From a virus, in UHGV virus genome UHGV-0268707: a stretch of 20,927 nucleotides of DNA, one strand, 5' to 3'. The notes beneath the pieces were generated by a model, which saw only the letters and a program-made list of their open reading frames with translations, ran no database searches and had not been told where the DNA came from. Shown here piece by piece: positions 9,643 to 15,639 of the stretch; within the stretch, counting starts at the first letter, position 1, and every line of letters starts with the position of its first letter. Made by a program: the position numbers and the translations under genes.

Positions 9643-10788
9643 ATGAAGAAATTAATCGAACTCCGCCAGCAAAAAACCGCCCTGAAAAACCAGATGCGAT
9701 CCCTGCTGGAAAAAGCCGACAGTGAAAACCGCAGTCTGACCGATGACGAGGGCAAACAGTTTGATGAACTGCGTGCAAAAGCCGATTCCCTCGACACAGA
9801 AATTTCCCGTCTTGAAGCTGTTGCGGATGAAGAACGTAACCAGCCTGGTGTTTCCGTCGAAGAGAAAATCACCAAAGACGAACTACGCTCTTACATTCTG
9901 ACCGGGGAAACCCGCAACCTGTCCGGCAGTGTCCCGGCTGATGGTGGTTATACGGTTATCCCGGAACTGAACAGAGAAATTATGCGTCAGCTTTCTGATG
10001 AATCGGTGATGCGTAAAATCTGTACTGTTAAAACCATTCACAGCAATGAATTTAAGCAACTGGTTTCTGCCGGGGGCGCGGTCGTTGAACACGGCGAAGA
10101 AGGCACTACACGTAACCAGACGGCAACACCAAAACTGAATGAAGTCAGTATCCGCCTGTATCCAATCTACGCTTACCCGAAAACCACTCAGGAAATTATC
10201 GATTTTTCCGAAGTTGATATTATGAGCTGGTTATCTTCTGAAATTGGCGACACTTTCGTTGATACCGAAGAAACGGATCTGGTTTCCGGTGACGGCGAGA
10301 AAAAAGCTAAAGGTTTCCTGGCTTTCCCGCGCACTGCAGATAATGACAAAACCCGTCCTTTCGGTACGCTCCAGACGAAAAAAGTGACTGGCAGTCTCAG
10401 CGCCGACATGCTGATTGACCTGAAATTTACGCTACGCAATAAGTACCGCAAAAAAGCTGTATGGGTGATGAACTCAAATACAGCCGCCTCCGCACAAAAA
10501 CTGAAAAATGCCACTGGTGATTACATCTGGCGCGATCGTTTACAGGCTGGTGATCCTGATTCTCTGCTGGGGCTTCCGGTTGAATATCTGGAATTTATGC
10601 CGGACGGTGTGATTGCAGTAGGTGACTTTAAGCGCGGTTATTTCATCGTTGACCATGAAACCGGTACGCGAACCCGTCCGGATTTCAGCGAACCCGGATT
10701 CATTAACATCTATACCCAGAAATATCTGGGCGGTGGTGTGGTGGATTCGAACGCCATCAAGATTCTGGAAATTCAGGCTGGCAAGTAA
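9643..10788 (+). CDS. Major capsid protein, HK97 family (satellite-encoded)
   Basis: N-terminal coiled/delta-like region (MKKLIELRQQKTALKNQMRSLLEKAD...), then the HK97-fold motif GDGEKKAKGFLAFP and GDFKRGYFIVDHETGTRTRPD. Clearly homologous to the helper capsid protein at 18972..20195 (GDGSKKPKGFLAYES, GNFKRGYTIVDRIGTRILRDP). Confidence 0.9.
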   Translation: MKKLIELRQQKTALKNQMRSLLEKADSENRSLTDDEGKQFDELRAKADSLDTEISRLEAVADEERNQPGVSVEEKITKDELRSYILTGETRNLSGSVPADGGYTVIPELNREIMRQLSDESVMRKICTVKTIHSNEFKQLVSAGGAVVEHGEEGTTRNQTATPKLNEVSIRLYPIYAYPKTTQEIIDFSEVDIMSWLSSEIGDTFVDTEETDLVSGDGEKKAKGFLAFPRTADNDKTRPFGTLQTKKVTGSLSADMLIDLKFTLRNKYRKKAVWVMNSNTAASAQKLKNATGDYIWRDRLQAGDPDSLLGLPVEYLEFMPDGVIAVGDFKRGYFIVDHETGTRTRPDFSEPGFINIYTQKYLGGGVVDSNAIKILEIQAGK

Positions 10789-10793
10789 TGAGC

Positions 10794-10818
10794 AAAGGGG
10801 GCTTCGGCCTCCTTTTTC
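10794..10818 (+). terminator. Candidate attenuator/terminator hairpin after the capsid gene
   Basis: AAAGGGGGC-ttcg-GCCTCCTTT stem with TTCG tetraloop followed by a T-run; 6 nt after the capsid stop. Confidence 0.4.
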
Positions 10819-10837
10819 AGCTTTATGGAGTACACCG

Positions 10838-11398
10838 ATGAAAAATACCGATTTTGAAATCCGTACATCTGAACTGACCGCCAGCGATAAAAAACTGGTG
10901 GGTTACGCCGTTCGCTGGAACAGCCTTTCAGAAATTATCTGGGACGAATTCCGCGAACAGTTCACACCGGGGGCTTTTGCTGACTATCTGGCTGCGGGTA
11001 ATGATGTGCGCTGTCTGTATGAACATGACTATACCCAACTGCTGGGGCGTACCAAATCCGGAACACTGGTACTGACTGAGGACAACACCGGGCTACGTTT
11101 TGAACTGACACCGCCAAATACCCAGCTTGGAAAAGATGTGCTTACGCTGGTGGAGCGTGGCGACATTACAGGTATGAGCTTTGGCTTTCGCGCATTATGC
11201 GAAGAATGGAATATCGCGCAAAAACCGTATCTGCGCACTGTTACCGCCGCAGAACTCCGCGAAATCACGATAACGTCAATGCCTGCTTATCCCGAATCCG
11301 GCGTGGAGATTGCCCACCGTTCGTTGTTTGCACAGCACCCTGAATTACGCCCGGCAGGAAATAATCGTCATCGCTGGGCTGAGCTGGCGGGGTTGTGA
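10838..11398 (+). CDS. Prohead maturation protease, HK97 family (peptidase S78)
   Basis: GGAG RBS upstream of ATG 10838. GYAVRWNSLSE...FTPGAFADYL...LYEHDYTQLLGRTKSGTLVLTEDNTGLRFE...GDITGMSFGF fits the S78 pattern and is homologous to the helper protease at 18307..18957. Confidence 0.85.
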   Translation: MKNTDFEIRTSELTASDKKLVGYAVRWNSLSEIIWDEFREQFTPGAFADYLAAGNDVRCLYEHDYTQLLGRTKSGTLVLTEDNTGLRFELTPPNTQLGKDVLTLVERGDITGMSFGFRALCEEWNIAQKPYLRTVTAAELREITITSMPAYPESGVEIAHRSLFAQHPELRPAGNNRHRWAELAGL

Positions 11399-13349: not shown

Positions 13350-13518
13350 ACAGGAGCAAACCAGGCTGATACGTGGACTGAGAAGGCAGCGTGACTTATG
13401 GAAGACACAGGAGACAGGGCACAAAGCCAACAGGACAGGACGCACAGAACGCACCACAGCGAAGCGATTAACCGACCGTGACCGCGAGGTCATGGAATGT
13501 TTTCGCAATCGCTGGTGA
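13333..13518 (+). CDS. Small basic hypothetical protein
   Basis: 61-aa arginine-rich ORF between HNH and terS; overlaps the HNH 3' end; no recognisable motif. Confidence 0.3.
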   Translation: MAMMTEQEQTRLIRGLRRQRDLWKTQETGHKANRTGRTERTTAKRLTDRDREVMECFRNRW

Positions 13519-13637
13519 GGCTGTCAGAGGGGGTGGGGGAGGTTTTCAGGACGAAACCGTCCCTGCCGGACACCGACCGCCTCCTCAAATTTTTGTGCAC
13601 GGGAATTTTTTTGAAAATAATTGGGCGAAAAAAGAAC

Positions 13638-13994
13638 ATGGCAAGACCACCAAAAGCCCCCGCTTACCTGGATGAAATCGCGGTCAGGCAGTGGAAGGAA
13701 AAATCGCGCCAGCTTTCCGGGCGGGAAGACCTTACCCCCGCCGACTGGAGCAATCTGGAGCTGTATTGCGTTAACTACTCCATATACCGCAAAGCCGTCG
13801 AAGACCTTGCCACGCGCGGGTTCAGCATTGTTAACAGTCAGGGCAGCGAGAGCAGAAACCCCGCCCTGAGCGCAAAGGCTGACGCTGAAAGAATAATGAT
13901 CAAAATGGCTTCTTTGCTGGGTTTTGACCCGGTAAGTCGCCGCAGAAATCCACCGGAAACAGAGGAAGAGGACGAGCTTGACCGCCTGGCATGA
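13638..13994 (+). CDS. terS: Terminase small subunit (P27 family)
   Basis: MARPPKAPAYLDEIAVRQWKEKSRQLSGREDLTPADWSNLELYCVNYSIYRKAVEDLATRGFSIVNSQGSESRNPALSA...LLGFDPVSRRR matches the P27-type TerS pattern; located directly upstream of terL. Confidence 0.8.
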   Translation: MARPPKAPAYLDEIAVRQWKEKSRQLSGREDLTPADWSNLELYCVNYSIYRKAVEDLATRGFSIVNSQGSESRNPALSAKADAERIMIKMASLLGFDPVSRRRNPPETEEEDELDRLA

Positions 13995-15639
13995 GTACGC
14001 AGAAGGCGTAAAAAACGGCAAAATTACGGCCTGTAAACGACTGAAACAGGCCGTTAAACGGTATTTTTCTGACCTTGAAAACCCCCTTTACACGTTCGAT
14101 CCGGAGGTCGTGGAGCGGTTTATTGCCTTTTCCAGGGTGTGTCCGCACGTAAAAGGCGCAATGCGCGGTAGCCCCATTGAGCTGGAGCCGTGGCAGCAGT
14201 TCGCCTTTGCGTGCATCCTGGGCTTTAAGGTTAAGGCCACCGGACGGCGCAAATACACCAGCGCATTCATTGAAGTGCCGCGAAAAAATGCCAAATCCAC
14301 GGTCGCCGCTATCCTGGCTAACTGGTTTCTGGTTATGGAAAACGGGCAGCAGGATATTTACACCGCCGCCGTGAGTCGTGATCAGGCGCGGATCGTGTTT
14401 GATGATGCGCGTCAGATGTGCCTTTTATCCCGACCGTTACGAAAGCGGGTAAATATTCAGGCGCACAAGGTGATACACCCGAAAACCAACAGCCTGTTAA
14501 AGCCACTGGCAGCAAAAGCGGCAACCATTGAAGGTACAAACCCGAGTCTTGCCATTGTGGATGAATATCACCTGCACCCTGACAACGGGGTTTATTCCGC
14601 GCTTGAGCTGGGAATGGGGGCGCGTCCGGAGGGGCTGTTATTTGCCATCACCACATCGGGGAGCAACGTTGTTTCAGCCTGTAAACAACACTACGACTAT
14701 TGCTGCCAGATACTGGATGGTGAAGAGGTGAACGAATCCATGTTCGTACTGATTTACGAGCTGGATGATGAAAGCGAGGTTGACGATCCGGCGATGTGGA
14801 TAAAGGCGAATCCCAATATTGATGTTTCCGTCGATCGTGAAAAACTGGCCTCAACCATCCAGAAAGCGCGGGGTATTCCGTCGCAGTGGGTGGAAATGCT
14901 CACCAAGCGATTCAATATCTGGTGTCAGGGGGCTACGCCGTGGATGGGTAACGGTGCATGGGCTGAGTGCGCCGGAACGTTCGCGGAGGCGGATTTATAC
15001 GGGCAGGAGTGCTACGCGGGGCTGGACTTATCATCAACCAGCGATATTTCCAGCGTGTGCTATGCCTTCCCGGTCGGTAAAAAAATTATGCTGGTTTCCC
15101 GTCACTATCTGCCTGAATTTCAGCTACAGAACCCCGCCAATAAAAACCGCGCCATCTATCGCCAGTGGGTAAAGGCGGGCTGGATACGCACAACACCGGG
15201 TGACTGCATTGATTATGACCGTATCCGTGATGACATCATGGCGGATGCAGAGAATTTCAATATCAGGCTGGTGGGCTTCGATACATGGAACGCCACGCAC
15301 CTGAGGACGCAGCTACAGGGCGCAGGATTTGAGGTGGAGCCGTTCCCGCAAACATACCTTCGTTTCAGTCCGGCGGCGAAATCGTTCGAAGTTTTTGTTA
15401 ACCGGAAGGTGATTGTGCATCGTGGTGATCCGGTGCTGGCCTGGTCAATGAGTAATGTTGTGATGCAGAGTGACGCGAACGCCAATATCAAGCCGAACAA
15501 GAAAAAATCATCCAACAAGATAGACCCGAGCGTTGCGGCGCTGATGGCGTTTGGCACATTCCAGGCAGAGCATGAGGAATTTGCATTCGATATGAGCGAC
15601 AGCCACAAAGAGCGGCTTGCGACGTTTGATGGTGTGTAA
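13978..15639 (+). CDS. terL: Terminase large subunit (satellite-encoded, intact)
   Basis: 553 aa, colinear with both halves of the interrupted helper terL (ATPase region AAVSRDQARIVFDD, nuclease region FDTWNATHLR...DPSVAALMAFG). Likely TTG start at 13978 overlapping terS; first in-frame ATG is far downstream. Confidence 0.9.
   Translation: MTAWHEYAEGVKNGKITACKRLKQAVKRYFSDLENPLYTFDPEVVERFIAFSRVCPHVKGAMRGSPIELEPWQQFAFACILGFKVKATGRRKYTSAFIEVPRKNAKSTVAAILANWFLVMENGQQDIYTAAVSRDQARIVFDDARQMCLLSRPLRKRVNIQAHKVIHPKTNSLLKPLAAKAATIEGTNPSLAIVDEYHLHPDNGVYSALELGMGARPEGLLFAITTSGSNVVSACKQHYDYCCQILDGEEVNESMFVLIYELDDESEVDDPAMWIKANPNIDVSVDREKLASTIQKARGIPSQWVEMLTKRFNIWCQGATPWMGNGAWAECAGTFAEADLYGQECYAGLDLSSTSDISSVCYAFPVGKKIMLVSRHYLPEFQLQNPANKNRAIYRQWVKAGWIRTTPGDCIDYDRIRDDIMADAENFNIRLVGFDTWNATHLRTQLQGAGFEVEPFPQTYLRFSPAAKSFEVFVNRKVIVHRGDPVLAWSMSNVVMQSDANANIKPNKKKSSNKIDPSVAALMAFGTFQAEHEEFAFDMSDSHKERLATFDGV

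What the first reader, a model, noticed from the sequence alone, without database searches (positions are those of the whole stretch)
9643..15639. Satellite encodes a complete but reordered HK97-type capsid and packaging module with no tail or lysis genes
The element carries its own major capsid protein, S78 protease, portal, gp6-like connector, HNH, TerS (P27 type) and TerL, all distant homologs of the helper module at 16154..20904. Nothing between 662 and 16164 looks like a head-closure, tail, tape-measure or lysis gene. That is the gene content expected of a capsid-forming, tail-stealing satellite (established concept). The order here (capsid, protease, portal, connector, HNH, TerS, TerL) inverts the portal-protease-capsid order of the adjacent helper, so the module is rearranged rather than simply copied. 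The helper does encode a head-closure protein (20566..20904) that the satellite lacks.
Basis: partly seen in the sequence, partly recalled or inferred. Interest (0 to 1): 0.75.

Follow-up and report, generated by a model that had tools for sequence, protein, structure and literature searches.

The report
Capsid-forming phage satellite inside helper terminase gene
This is a 15.5-kb E. coli phage satellite that makes its own small capsid and packaging machinery, borrows tails from the prophage it sits in, and interrupts that prophage's large-terminase gene; both features were published in 2023, so it is a correct but ordinary finding.

Summary
Window 9643-15639 encodes, in this order, an HK97-type major capsid protein, S78 protease, portal, gp6-like connector, HNH, P27-type TerS and TerL. 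All pass Pfam thresholds. They are only 19-35% identical to the neighbouring prophage's homologues. No tail or lysis family is detectable anywhere in 662-16164.

The satellite interpretation is supported, but nothing in it is new:
[quoted passage not shown] The element is syntenic with the EcCIEDL933-type cfPICI at 55-93% protein identity.
- **Location.** The element is bounded by a TTACCAA core at 662-668 and 16158-16164 and lies inside the prophage's terL gene. Joining the flanks restores the intact reading frame.
- **Published class.** This site, core, flanking sequence and the doubled TGTATTGC arm motif are those of the "A:Terminase_1:246" helper-embedded PICIs of Tommasini et al. 2023. 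A catalogued member (E. coli UMNF18) is among the close matches.
- **Frequency.** Of 5,426 complete E. coli genomes, 36 carry the junction and about 905 carry the empty terL allele.

The one departure from the prototype is the missing head-closure gene (Phage_HCP). That variant is common and also occurs at chromosomal sites.

The parts
61..668 (+). 5' fragment of the helper prophage's terL (ATPase domain and start of the nuclease domain), cut at the satellite insertion
   Evidence: Pfam TerL_ATPase 7e-19 and TerL_nuclease profile positions 2-64. It is colinear with intact terL of phage vB_EcoM-606R7 up to ...RVNFFTK.
662..668 (+). attL core TTACCAA (crossover region)
   Evidence: Three-way alignment of attL, attR and the intact attB. 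The same identity block 'ttaccaa' is listed for A_Terminase_1_246 HE-PICIs in the supplement of PMC10111431.
798..820 (+). Doubled arm motif tgTGTATTGCactgTGTATTGCa, 133 bp downstream of the core centre
   Evidence: Pattern search finds 2 matches against 0.00 expected. This is the HE-PICI attP hallmark, reported 132 +/- 2 bp downstream of the attP centre (PMC10111431).
840..2063 (+). Satellite tyrosine integrase
   Evidence: Pfam Phage_integrase and Arm-DNA-bind_3. It is 40-47% identical to the integrases of cfPICIs at other sites. At megablast level its 5' part is found only next to this terL site.
2029..2262 (+). AlpA-family regulator/excisionase 1, followed by a terminator-like hairpin at 2286-2305
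   Evidence: Pfam Phage_AlpA 1.9e-9; terminator scan.
2296..2604 (+). AlpA-family regulator 2, followed by a terminator-like hairpin at 2613-2638
   Evidence: Pfam Phage_AlpA 7e-10; terminator scan.
2662..3243 (+). Bro-N domain protein ('Bro zone')
   Evidence: Pfam Bro-N 1.2e-17.
4219..4497 (+). Icd-like / 'transcriptional repressor' small protein. Only the 3' part of ORF 3388-4497 is likely to be real.
   Evidence: phrog_6196 1.8e-53 on residues 278-368. RefSeq annotates the homologue in L001 as an Icd-like protein.
5155..5469 (+). DUF4222 protein
   Evidence: Pfam DUF4222 3e-19.
5466..7586 (+). DUF927 primase/helicase-type replication protein
   Evidence: Pfam DUF927 1e-45. It is 82% identical to the EcCIEDL933-type homologue.
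7610..7732 (.). Iteron cluster A: 6 copies of GCGGGTTA (2 direct, 4 inverted); probable origin
   Evidence: 12 copies in the window against 0.6 expected. The motif is present only in relatives that carry the DUF927 primase.
7797..8222 (+). SSB
   Evidence: Pfam SSB 1.4e-16.
8226..8519 (+). PerC-family transcriptional activator
   Evidence: Pfam PerC 2.7e-35.
8850..9356 (-). Low-GC accessory gene of unknown function in the variable slot upstream of the packaging operon
   Evidence: phrog_5789 3.5e-86, function unknown. No PADLOC hit. GC falls to 0.39 here.
9643..10788 (+). Satellite HK97-fold major capsid protein
   Evidence: Pfam Phage_capsid 2e-60. It is 75% identical to the EcCIEDL933-type MCP and 35% to the helper MCP.
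10838..11398 (+). Satellite prohead protease (S78)
   Evidence: Pfam Peptidase_S78 2.5e-45. It is 87% identical to vB_KppS-Ant.
11400..12614 (+). Satellite portal
   Evidence: Pfam Phage_portal 1.5e-92. It is 81-88% identical to cfPICI portals.
12607..12909 (+). gp6-like head-tail connector (Ad1 adaptor class). No head-closure gene precedes it.
   Evidence: Pfam Phage_connect_1 and phrog_40 6e-30. It is 55-60% identical to cfPICI connectors.
12909..13349 (+). HNH endonuclease of the packaging machine
   Evidence: Pfam HNH 9e-10. It is 84% identical to the EcCIEDL933-type HNH.
13333..13518 (+). 61-aa protein, homologue of the small gene between HNH and terS in the EcCIEDL933-type element (apparently 'gene 1792')
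   Evidence: phrog_3173 3e-26 and 78% identity to the homologue in L004. Mutation of gene 1792 severely reduced transfer (10.1101/2022.09.08.507074). The equation with 1792 is inferred from gene numbering, capsid being gene 1786.
13528..13556 (.). Candidate cos region
   Evidence: This conserved block aligns with the termini of the linear vB_KppS-Ant record, which starts 23 bp before terS. The assignment is inferred; cleavage has not been shown.
13638..13994 (+). Satellite TerS (P27/Terminase_4 type)
   Evidence: Pfam Terminase_4 4e-23. It is 88% identical to the EcCIEDL933-type TerS.
13978..15639 (+). Satellite TerL
   Evidence: Pfam TerL_ATPase and TerL_nuclease. It is 93% identical to the EcCIEDL933-type TerL and 29-34% to helper TerL.
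15721..15873 (.). Iteron cluster B: 6 copies of GCGGGTTA (3 direct, 3 inverted) in non-coding DNA after terL
16061..16083 (+). Doubled arm motif cgTGTATTGCgctgTGTATTGCt, about 80 bp upstream of the core
   Evidence: The position matches the 81 +/- 2 bp reported in PMC10111431.
16158..16164 (+). attR core TTACCAA
16165..16894 (+). 3' fragment of the helper terL (nuclease domain)
   Evidence: Pfam TerL_nuclease profile positions 64-283. It continues the intact TerL sequence HMNVWVTAESAW....
17088..20904 (+). Helper head genes: portal, S78 protease, capsid, gp6-like connector and head-closure protein (20566-20904)
   Evidence: Pfam. In the close relative L001 the same prophage continues into a lambda-like tail module.

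Best explanation
Window 662-16164 is a 15.5-kb capsid-forming phage-inducible chromosomal island (cfPICI). It is integrated by its own tyrosine integrase inside the large-terminase gene of a lambdoid, HK97-headed E. coli prophage. That makes it a helper-embedded PICI of the published site class A:Terminase_1:246.

**Shown here by computation:**
- the gene content;
- the att core and arm motifs;
- the fact that precise excision would rebuild an intact terL;
- the close relationship to EcCIEDL933.

**Established for relatives in the literature:**
- EcCIEDL933 builds small T=4 capsids from its own capsid, protease and portal.
- It packages only its own DNA with its own HNH, TerS and TerL, and takes tails from a helper.
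- For the helper-embedded PICI 11capE, the prophage-satellite composite excises and replicates first. The satellite excises later, which restores the interrupted late gene.

**Inferred for this element:**
1. After prophage induction, helper late transcription runs from terL' straight into int and alpA. No terminator-like hairpin lies between 668 and 840.
2. Int and AlpA recombine the TTACCAA cores. The satellite circle leaves and the helper terL is repaired.
3. The satellite replicates from GCGGGTTA iterons using its DUF927 primase.
4. It fills small heads from a cos site near 13.55 kb and acquires helper tails and helper lysis.
5. Because it has no head-closure gene, it probably also uses the helper's head-closure protein (20566-20904).
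For: - **Families.** Pfam and PHROGs assignments for all module genes, and no tail or lysis family anywhere in the element.
- **Split terL.** The helper TerL is divided at nuclease profile position 64. The two halves are colinear with the intact TerL of vB_EcoM-606R7.
- **att features.** The 7-bp core TTACCAA sits at both ends. The doubled TGTATTGC motif sits 133 bp and about 80 bp from the core.
- **Match to the published class.** The core, both arm-motif positions and the flanking sequence match the A_Terminase_1_246 entries (PMC10111431). The catalogued UMNF18 element (AGTD01000001.1/1112532-1127509) matches the window at 96.7% identity over 87% of the query (H11).
- **Frequency.** 36 of 5,426 E. 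coli genomes carry the junction and about 905 carry the empty allele.
- **Prophage context.** The surrounding prophage in the relative L001 has early, lysis, head and lambda-like tail modules.
- **Kinship with cfPICIs.** The element is syntenic with the EcCIEDL933-type element at 55-93% identity. It is 60-88% identical to vB_KppS-Ant, a 16.5-kb genome recorded as an 'induced prophage'.
- **Experimental biology of relatives.** 10.1101/2022.09.08.507074, 10.1101/2025.02.11.637232 and PMC10111431.
Against: - Nothing has been measured for this particular element. Excision, replication, small capsids and transfer are all extrapolated from relatives.
- Tommasini et al. could not recover particles from their model helper-embedded PICI and helper, and they note that many helpers look truncated. 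The window shows only about 5.4 kb of the prophage, so its integrity in this strain is unknown.
- The element lacks the Phage_HCP gene. In the tested cfPICIs, mutation of every packaging-module gene except 1792 abolished transfer. This variant could therefore be less autonomous, or defective.
- The read-through and induction step is only supported by the absence of a terminator-like pattern in a simple scan.
Confidence: 0.83

Rival explanations
1. It is a decaying remnant of a second full prophage nested in the first (prophage-in-prophage) that has lost its tail and lysis genes, and not a self-contained satellite.
For: It carries a near-complete phage head and packaging module. It also lacks one head gene, Phage_HCP, that relatives have, which could be read as ongoing decay.
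Against: - The int-AlpA-Bro-primase-late organisation, with int pointing inward, is the PICI layout and not a prophage layout (PMC10111431).
- The same 15-16 kb architecture recurs at the roxA/phoQ, fis, yifB and terL sites, with different integrases and no tail genes.
- The HCP-less module is conserved at 95% identity or more in about 155 genomes.
Confidence: 0.04
2. The element is a genuine cfPICI-type helper-embedded satellite by descent, but it is now immobile. It would be a fossil that permanently inactivates the prophage's terL, because loss of the head-closure gene or decay of the helper stops it completing particles.
For: There is no HCP gene. Tommasini et al. failed to obtain virions from their model composite and saw many truncated helpers. 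RefSeq annotates terL as two pseudogene fragments.
Against: - All satellite ORFs are intact, and both att cores and both arm motifs are preserved.
- The junction occurs in 36 genomes from diverse hosts. Element identity to the window runs from 94.7% to 97.5% among the 25 best matches, which suggests spread and not one fossil lineage.
- The HCP-less module is found at three or more different att sites, which implies recent mobility.
Confidence: 0.12
3. The duplicated head and packaging genes arose by recombination or tandem duplication within a single prophage, with no separate mobile element.
For: Two sets of homologous head genes lie side by side on the same strand.
Against: - The two sets are only 19-35% identical at protein level and share no nucleotide similarity.
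- The insert brings its own integrase, AlpA, primase and SSB.
- It is bounded by a site-specific core, and the empty site exists in about 905 genomes.
Confidence: 0.01

Closest known systems
Helper-embedded PICIs (HE-PICIs), site class A:Terminase_1:246 (Tommasini, Mageeney & Williams 2023, NAR Genom Bioinform, PMC10111431)
   Same: - Integration is in the prophage terL at the same codon, with the same TTACCAA identity block. The attL and attR flanks are essentially identical to the published alignments.
- The doubled tgTGTATTGCantgTGTATTGCa motif lies at the published distances from the core.
- The size is 15-16 kb, and int, AlpA and primase are co-oriented with the late gene.
- The four-zone layout (Integration, Bro, Replication, Late) is present.
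- The catalogued UMNF18 element is a close match.
   Different: Nothing essential differs. The paper's experimental model (11capE) sits in the capsid gene, is 11 kb and has no terS, so it relies on helper packaging. This element brings its own full packaging machine. The paper's gene profiles for terL-site elements at Terminase_1:132 include Phage_H_T_join (= Phage_HCP), which this element lacks.
Capsid-forming PICIs (cfPICIs), prototype EcCIEDL933 (Alqurainy et al. 2023, preprint 10.1101/2022.09.08.507074; follow-up preprint 10.1101/2025.02.11.637232)
   Same: - The size is about 15.4 kb, and the int-alpA-...-DUF4222-DUF927 primase-SSB-PerC backbone is the same.
- The packaging-operon order is identical.
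- Protein identities are TerL 93%, TerS 88%, HNH 84%, portal 81%, capsid 75%, protease 62% and connector 55%.
- There are no tail or lysis genes.
   Different: - The integrase is different (42% identity) and the target is a prophage terL, not the roxA-phoQ chromosomal locus.
- There is a second AlpA and a Bro-N gene.
- There is no head-closure gene between portal and connector.
- An extra minus-strand accessory gene lies upstream of the capsid gene.
vB_KppS-Ant (LR881103.1), a 16.5-kb record described as an 'induced prophage'
   Same: The packaging-module order is the same, at 60-88% identity (TerL 83%, portal 88%, protease 87%). Its linear record starts just before terS, which gives a candidate cos position for the window element.
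   Different: The integrase differs (47% identity). The primases are homologous only over the N-terminal ~120 residues (48% identity). It has Phage_HCP (gp9) and a 765-aa accessory gene after terL.
Satellite P4 (P2 helper)
   Same: It is an integrative satellite with a related integrase clade, AlpA-type control and a primase-helicase. P4 has two iteron regions (ori and crr; from my own knowledge), which resembles the two GCGGGTTA clusters here.
   Different: P4 encodes no capsid, portal or terminase and remodels helper capsids instead. It integrates in a tRNA gene, not in its helper.

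Membership tests
cfPICI (SatelliteFinder 11-component definition, PMC10085698; criteria in 10.1101/2025.02.11.637232) | Integrase, AlpA-type regulator and primase/replicase at the left side | tested here: met
   Phage_integrase with Arm-DNA-bind_3, two Phage_AlpA proteins and DUF927.
cfPICI (SatelliteFinder 11-component definition, PMC10085698; criteria in 10.1101/2025.02.11.637232) | Own major capsid protein, prohead protease and portal | tested here: met
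   Pfam hits far above the cut-offs, and 62-81% identity to the EcCIEDL933-type proteins.
cfPICI (SatelliteFinder 11-component definition, PMC10085698; criteria in 10.1101/2025.02.11.637232) | Own HNH, TerS and TerL | tested here: met
   Pfam HNH, Terminase_4 and TerL_ATPase/TerL_nuclease, and 84-93% identity to the EcCIEDL933-type proteins.
cfPICI (SatelliteFinder 11-component definition, PMC10085698; criteria in 10.1101/2025.02.11.637232) | Both head-tail joining genes (the 'adaptor' and 'connector' of the cfPICI papers: one Phage_HCP head-closure gene and one gp6-like Phage_connect_1 gene) | tested here: not met
   Only the gp6-like gene is present at 12607-12909. There is no Phage_HCP by Pfam, PHROGs or tblastn. 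The element therefore has 10 of 11 components, which is 'Type B' in SatelliteFinder terms and still counted as cfPICI in PMC10085698. The same HCP-less module is found in about 155 E. coli genomes.
cfPICI (SatelliteFinder 11-component definition, PMC10085698; criteria in 10.1101/2025.02.11.637232) | No tail module and no lysis genes; size about 10-18 kb | tested here: met
   The element is 15,496 bp between the cores. No tail, holin or lysin family is hit in any ORF.
cfPICI (SatelliteFinder 11-component definition, PMC10085698; criteria in 10.1101/2025.02.11.637232) | [quoted passage not shown] | tested here: met
   The order in the window equals that in L003 and L004 and the order stated in the paper.
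cfPICI (SatelliteFinder 11-component definition, PMC10085698; criteria in 10.1101/2025.02.11.637232) | Forms small satellite-only capsids and is transferred with helper tails | not testable with these tools
   This needs induction, EM and transfer assays. It has been shown only for EcCIEDL933, EcCIGN02175 and KpCIDSM30104.
HE-PICI, site A:Terminase_1:246 (PMC10111431) | Integrated inside a prophage late gene, disrupting it without a replacement sequence, and co-oriented with it | tested here: met
   terL is split at 668/16165. The flanks join to the intact frame ...RVNFFTK|HMNVW... The satellite genes lie on the same strand.
HE-PICI, site A:Terminase_1:246 (PMC10111431) | Identity block and attL/attR flanks of the site class | tested here: met
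   The TTACCAA core and the flanking sequence match the published attL and attR alignments (compared).
HE-PICI, site A:Terminase_1:246 (PMC10111431) | Two co-oriented copies of the doubled TGTATTGC motif at fixed distances from the attP centre | tested here: met
   Copies at 800-819 and 16063-16082, with 0 expected by chance. The distances are about 133 bp and about 80 bp, against the published 132 +/- 2 and 81 +/- 2.
HE-PICI, site A:Terminase_1:246 (PMC10111431) | Integrase belongs to the HE-PICI clade | not tested
   No phylogeny was built. Indirect support: the 5' part of int plus its upstream region occurs at megablast level only next to this terL site. The integrase is only 40-47% identical to those of cfPICIs at fis, yifB, roxA/phoQ and in vB_KppS-Ant.
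HE-PICI, site A:Terminase_1:246 (PMC10111431) | Late, precise excision that restores the helper gene after composite excision and replication | not testable with these tools
   This was shown by qPCR and deep sequencing only for 11capE/61icd.

The most novel reading that the evidence does not exclude
The HCP-less packaging module seen here, and in about 155 complete E. coli genomes at terL, fis and yifB sites, may be a functional cfPICI sub-type. It would take the helper's head-closure protein as well as the tail. Its filled heads could then not be sealed without a compatible helper. It would also not form the stable free tail-less capsids that let canonical cfPICIs pick up tails from other species. 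This would be a second dependency level within cfPICIs. In this window it is compounded by the satellite holding the helper's terL hostage.
Probability: 0.3. Interest if true: 0.4.

Novelty: already known. Interest (0 to 1): 0.2.

Why it matters
The window is a clean textbook example of two recently described ideas combined in one locus. One is a satellite that builds its own capsids and takes only tails. The other is a satellite that lives inside its helper's late gene, so that the helper cannot package DNA until the satellite leaves.

This matters for annotation. RefSeq labels the split terL as two pseudogenes and the satellite as generic phage genes, so prophage finders will score the region as one oversized or 'defective' prophage.

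It adds nothing conceptually new. The only loose end with research value is how cfPICI variants without a head-closure gene seal their heads.

Tried and rejected
1. **A new kind of helper interference.** I first thought the terL insertion might be one. I rejected this when reference 47 of PMC10085698 led to PMC10111431, which describes helper-embedded PICIs and lists this exact site, core and arm motif.
2. **Loss of the head-closure gene as an adaptation to living inside the helper.** I rejected this for two reasons. The same HCP-less module sits at the chromosomal fis and yifB sites. At least one terL-embedded relative (strain 10, NZ_CP048330.1) keeps the HCP gene (H19, H122).
3. **P4-type immunity RNAs (C4, isrK) reported for some HE-PICIs.** Rfam gives no hit at gathering thresholds, and only chance-level hits in E-value mode over 2600-4600.
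4. **Known defence genes in the accessory slots.** PADLOC finds nothing for 8850-9356, 15796-16047 and six other small or regulatory ORFs.
5. **Real genes among the long minus-strand ORFs overlapping satellite genes.** None has a PHROG hit, so I treated them as spurious.
6. **The SxGxxAD capsid maturation motif reported for EcCIEDL933 and HK97.** There is no exact match in this capsid protein, and I did not pursue it.
7. **Technical failures.** Two scripts failed because locus L002 is stored inside L001.fa. The alignment was redone with DNA alignment. The cfPICI preprint's supplementary tables of att sites are not held.

Full report
**1. The observation**

The seven assignments in 9643-15639 all hold:
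- Phage_capsid, 2e-60;
- Peptidase_S78, 2.5e-45;
- Phage_portal, 1.5e-92;
- Phage_connect_1, marginal in Pfam at 6e-5 but clear in PHROGs as phrog_40, head-tail adaptor Ad1, 6e-30;
- HNH, 9e-10;
- Terminase_4, 4e-23;
- TerL_ATPase plus TerL_nuclease.

Homology-based gene starts are protease 10838, portal 11400, connector 12607 and TerS 13638.

The adjacent module at 16169-20904 encodes a TerL nuclease fragment, portal, S78 protease, capsid, gp6-like connector and a Phage_HCP head-closure protein.

The two modules are distant. Identities are capsid 35%, portal 32%, TerL 29-34%, connector 26% and protease 19%, and blastn finds no nucleotide similarity.

All remaining ORFs between 662 and 16164 hit integration, regulation or replication families, or families of unknown function. 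These include the integrase, two AlpA proteins, Bro-N, an Icd-like protein, DUF4222, the DUF927 primase, SSB and PerC. No tail, holin or lysin family appears.

**2. The setting: the element sits inside the helper's terL**

- ORF 61-834 begins as a TerL. It covers the ATPase domain and nuclease profile positions 2-64. ORF 16169-16894 continues at nuclease profile position 64.
- Phage vB_EcoM-606R7 has the uninterrupted gene. Its protein reads ...KEQVSARVNFFTKHMNVWVTAESAW... The window's left flank ends at ...NFFTK and the right flank resumes at HMNVW.
- Both junctions carry TTACCAA, at 662-668 and 16158-16164. Excision by recombination within this 7-bp core would rebuild terL exactly.
- A doubled motif TGTATTGCnnTGTGTATTGC occurs exactly twice in the window, against 0.00 expected. 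One copy lies about 133 bp inside attL and the other about 80 bp inside attR.
- In the close relative E. coli rl0044 (97.3% identity), the surrounding prophage runs from recE through lysis genes, HNH, TerS and the split terL, then head genes and a lambda-like tail module.

**3. How common it is**

Among 5,426 complete E. coli genomes:
- About 905 carry this terL allele uninterrupted.
- 36 carry the terL::int junction.
- The first ~220 bp of int and its upstream region are found nowhere else at megablast sensitivity.
- 32 genomes match at least 80% of the whole element plus flanks, including E. coli 042 and UMNF18.

**4. What it is**

The element is collinear with the cfPICI of O157:H7 strain 86-24, which is EcCIEDL933-type and lies between roxA and phoQ. 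The shared layout is int, AlpA, Icd-like, DUF4222, DUF927, SSB, PerC, capsid, protease, portal, (head closure), connector, HNH, a 60-aa protein, TerS and TerL.

Protein identities to that element are TerL 93%, TerS 88%, HNH 84%, primase 82%, portal 81%, capsid 75%, protease 62% and connector 55%.

It is also 60-88% identical across the packaging module to vB_KppS-Ant. That is a 16.5-kb linear record from an 'induced prophage' which starts 23 bp before terS. This gives a candidate cos position for the window element at about 13528-13556.

[quoted passage not shown] **5. The terL insertion is also published**

Reference 47 of the SatelliteFinder paper is Tommasini, Mageeney & Williams 2023 (PMC10111431). 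That paper reports the following:
[quoted passage not shown] - It describes the doubled motif tgTGTATTGCantgTGTATTGCa at 81 +/- 2 bp and 132 +/- 2 bp from the attP centre.

Its supplement lists the class A_Terminase_1_246. The members are 15-16 kb, occur in E. coli and E. albertii, and have the identity block 'ttaccaa'. Their attL and attR flanks are essentially those of the window. UMNF18 (AGTD01000001.1/1112532-1127509) is a listed member, and it matches the window at 96.7% identity (H11).

[quoted passage not shown] Both halves of the story are therefore in the literature, and this element belongs to a catalogued group.

**6. Mechanism**

Shown here:
- the anatomy;
- the exact restorability of terL;
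- the kinship with experimentally studied elements.

From the literature on relatives:
- own T=4 capsids of 47.5 nm;
- packaging of satellite DNA only, with the satellite's own HNH, TerS and TerL;
- tails taken from the helper;
- loss of transfer when any packaging gene is mutated;
- late excision of an embedded satellite.

Inferred for this element:
1. Helper late transcription reads from terL' into int and alpA. No terminator-like hairpin lies between 668 and 840, and the first such hairpins follow each alpA at 2286-2305 and 2613-2638.
2. Int and AlpA excise the satellite.
3. The DUF927 primase acts on GCGGGTTA iterons.
4. DNA is packaged from the candidate cos.
5. The helper supplies tails and lysis.
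6. The helper cannot make TerL until the satellite has left, which would give the satellite a head start in packaging. Tommasini et al. propose the same logic for the class.

**7. The one departure from the prototype**

Canonical cfPICIs have a Phage_HCP head-closure gene between portal and connector. This element has none. tblastn with HCP queries finds only the helper's gene at 20566-20904.

I tested whether this loss goes with helper embedding. It does not:
- The contiguous portal-connector-HNH arrangement occurs at 95% identity or more in about 155 of the 534 genomes that carry this module.
- It occurs in elements at fis and at yifB.
- A terL-embedded relative retains HCP (H19, H122).

In SatelliteFinder terms this is a 10-of-11 'Type B' cfPICI, a category with 459 members. 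How such variants close their heads is unknown. Borrowing the helper's HCP is the obvious hypothesis, and it is untested.

**8. Rivals**

- **Decayed nested prophage.** This is contradicted by the PICI-type layout, by the recurrence of the same 15-16 kb architecture at four att sites with different integrases, and by published phylogeny.
- **Internal duplication.** This is excluded by the low identity between the modules, by the element's own integration and replication genes, and by the empty sites.
- **Mobile by descent but now immobile.** This cannot be excluded without experiments. Intact ORFs, intact att features and spread across diverse strains argue against it.

**9. Verdict**

The novelty class is 'already known'. 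The element is a member of the published A:Terminase_1:246 helper-embedded PICI class, with a cfPICI-type late zone that lacks the head-closure gene. I score interest low, at 0.2. The residual value lies in the head-closure question and in a few side observations: the twin iteron clusters, a possible small RNA and an uncharacterised accessory gene.

Noticed in passing
window 7610-7732 and 15721-15873: There are twelve copies of GCGGGTTA against 0.6 expected, in two clusters. One is just downstream of the DUF927 primase gene. The other is in the 520-bp non-coding stretch after the satellite terL. Relatives with the DUF927 primase (L001, L004, L006) have the motif, and relatives with another primase (L003, L005) do not. 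This is probably the origin plus a second iteron set, reminiscent of P4 ori and crr.
   Followed up: partly
window 3405-3509, minus strand: The best promoter-like site in the window (TGGTCA-16-TATAAT with an upstream TG, 10/12) is followed about 45 nt later by a strong terminator hairpin at 3436-3409. This could give a small RNA of about 70 nt, antisense to the satellite's main transcription, between the Bro-N and Icd-like genes. A second strong minus-strand terminator lies at 3559-3534. Rfam finds nothing, including the C4/isrK immunity RNAs reported for some HE-PICIs.
   Followed up: partly
window 12607-12909, with L003 15296-15637 and L004 11915-12253 for comparison: The satellite lacks the Phage_HCP head-closure gene that canonical cfPICIs carry between portal and connector. 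Its connector is only 55-60% identical to theirs, while the flanking portal and HNH are 76-88% identical. The HCP-less module occurs in about 155 complete E. coli genomes, at terL, fis and yifB sites.
   Followed up: yes
window 8823-9356: A low-GC (about 39%) minus-strand gene of 168 aa (phrog_5789, unknown function, no PADLOC hit) sits behind a bidirectional terminator at 8823-8842. This is the variable slot before the packaging operon, where cfPICIs are expected to carry defence genes.
   Followed up: partly
window 8226-8519: The satellite encodes a PerC-family transcriptional activator (Pfam 2.7e-35), as the EcCIEDL933-type element does. From my own knowledge, PerC/Pch proteins regulate the LEE virulence island in EPEC and EHEC, so a satellite-borne copy could affect host virulence regulation.
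   Followed up: no
window 13528-13556: The conserved block GGGGGTGGGGGAGGTTTTCAGGAC aligns with the ends of the linear vB_KppS-Ant record. It is a candidate cos site between the 61-aa gene and terS.
   Followed up: partly
window 14899-14928: At the position homologous to the helper attB, the satellite's own terL reads TCACCAA. That is 6 of 7 matches to the TTACCAA core, but the flanks differ. Some published elements of this class use the variant core TCACGAA.
   Followed up: no
window 16906-17088: The helper has a 60-aa membrane protein gene (phrog_502, moron/auxiliary category) between terL and portal. Related phage records (phiP27, ST64B, SfII) annotate a membrane protein in the matching terL-to-capsid region.
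   Followed up: no
L001 12509-13727: In the related composite prophage of strain rl0044, an ADP-ribosyltransferase (scabin-related) and a subtilase-family AB5 toxin B subunit lie just upstream of the lysis genes. This looks like a toxin cargo of the helper prophage.
   Followed up: no
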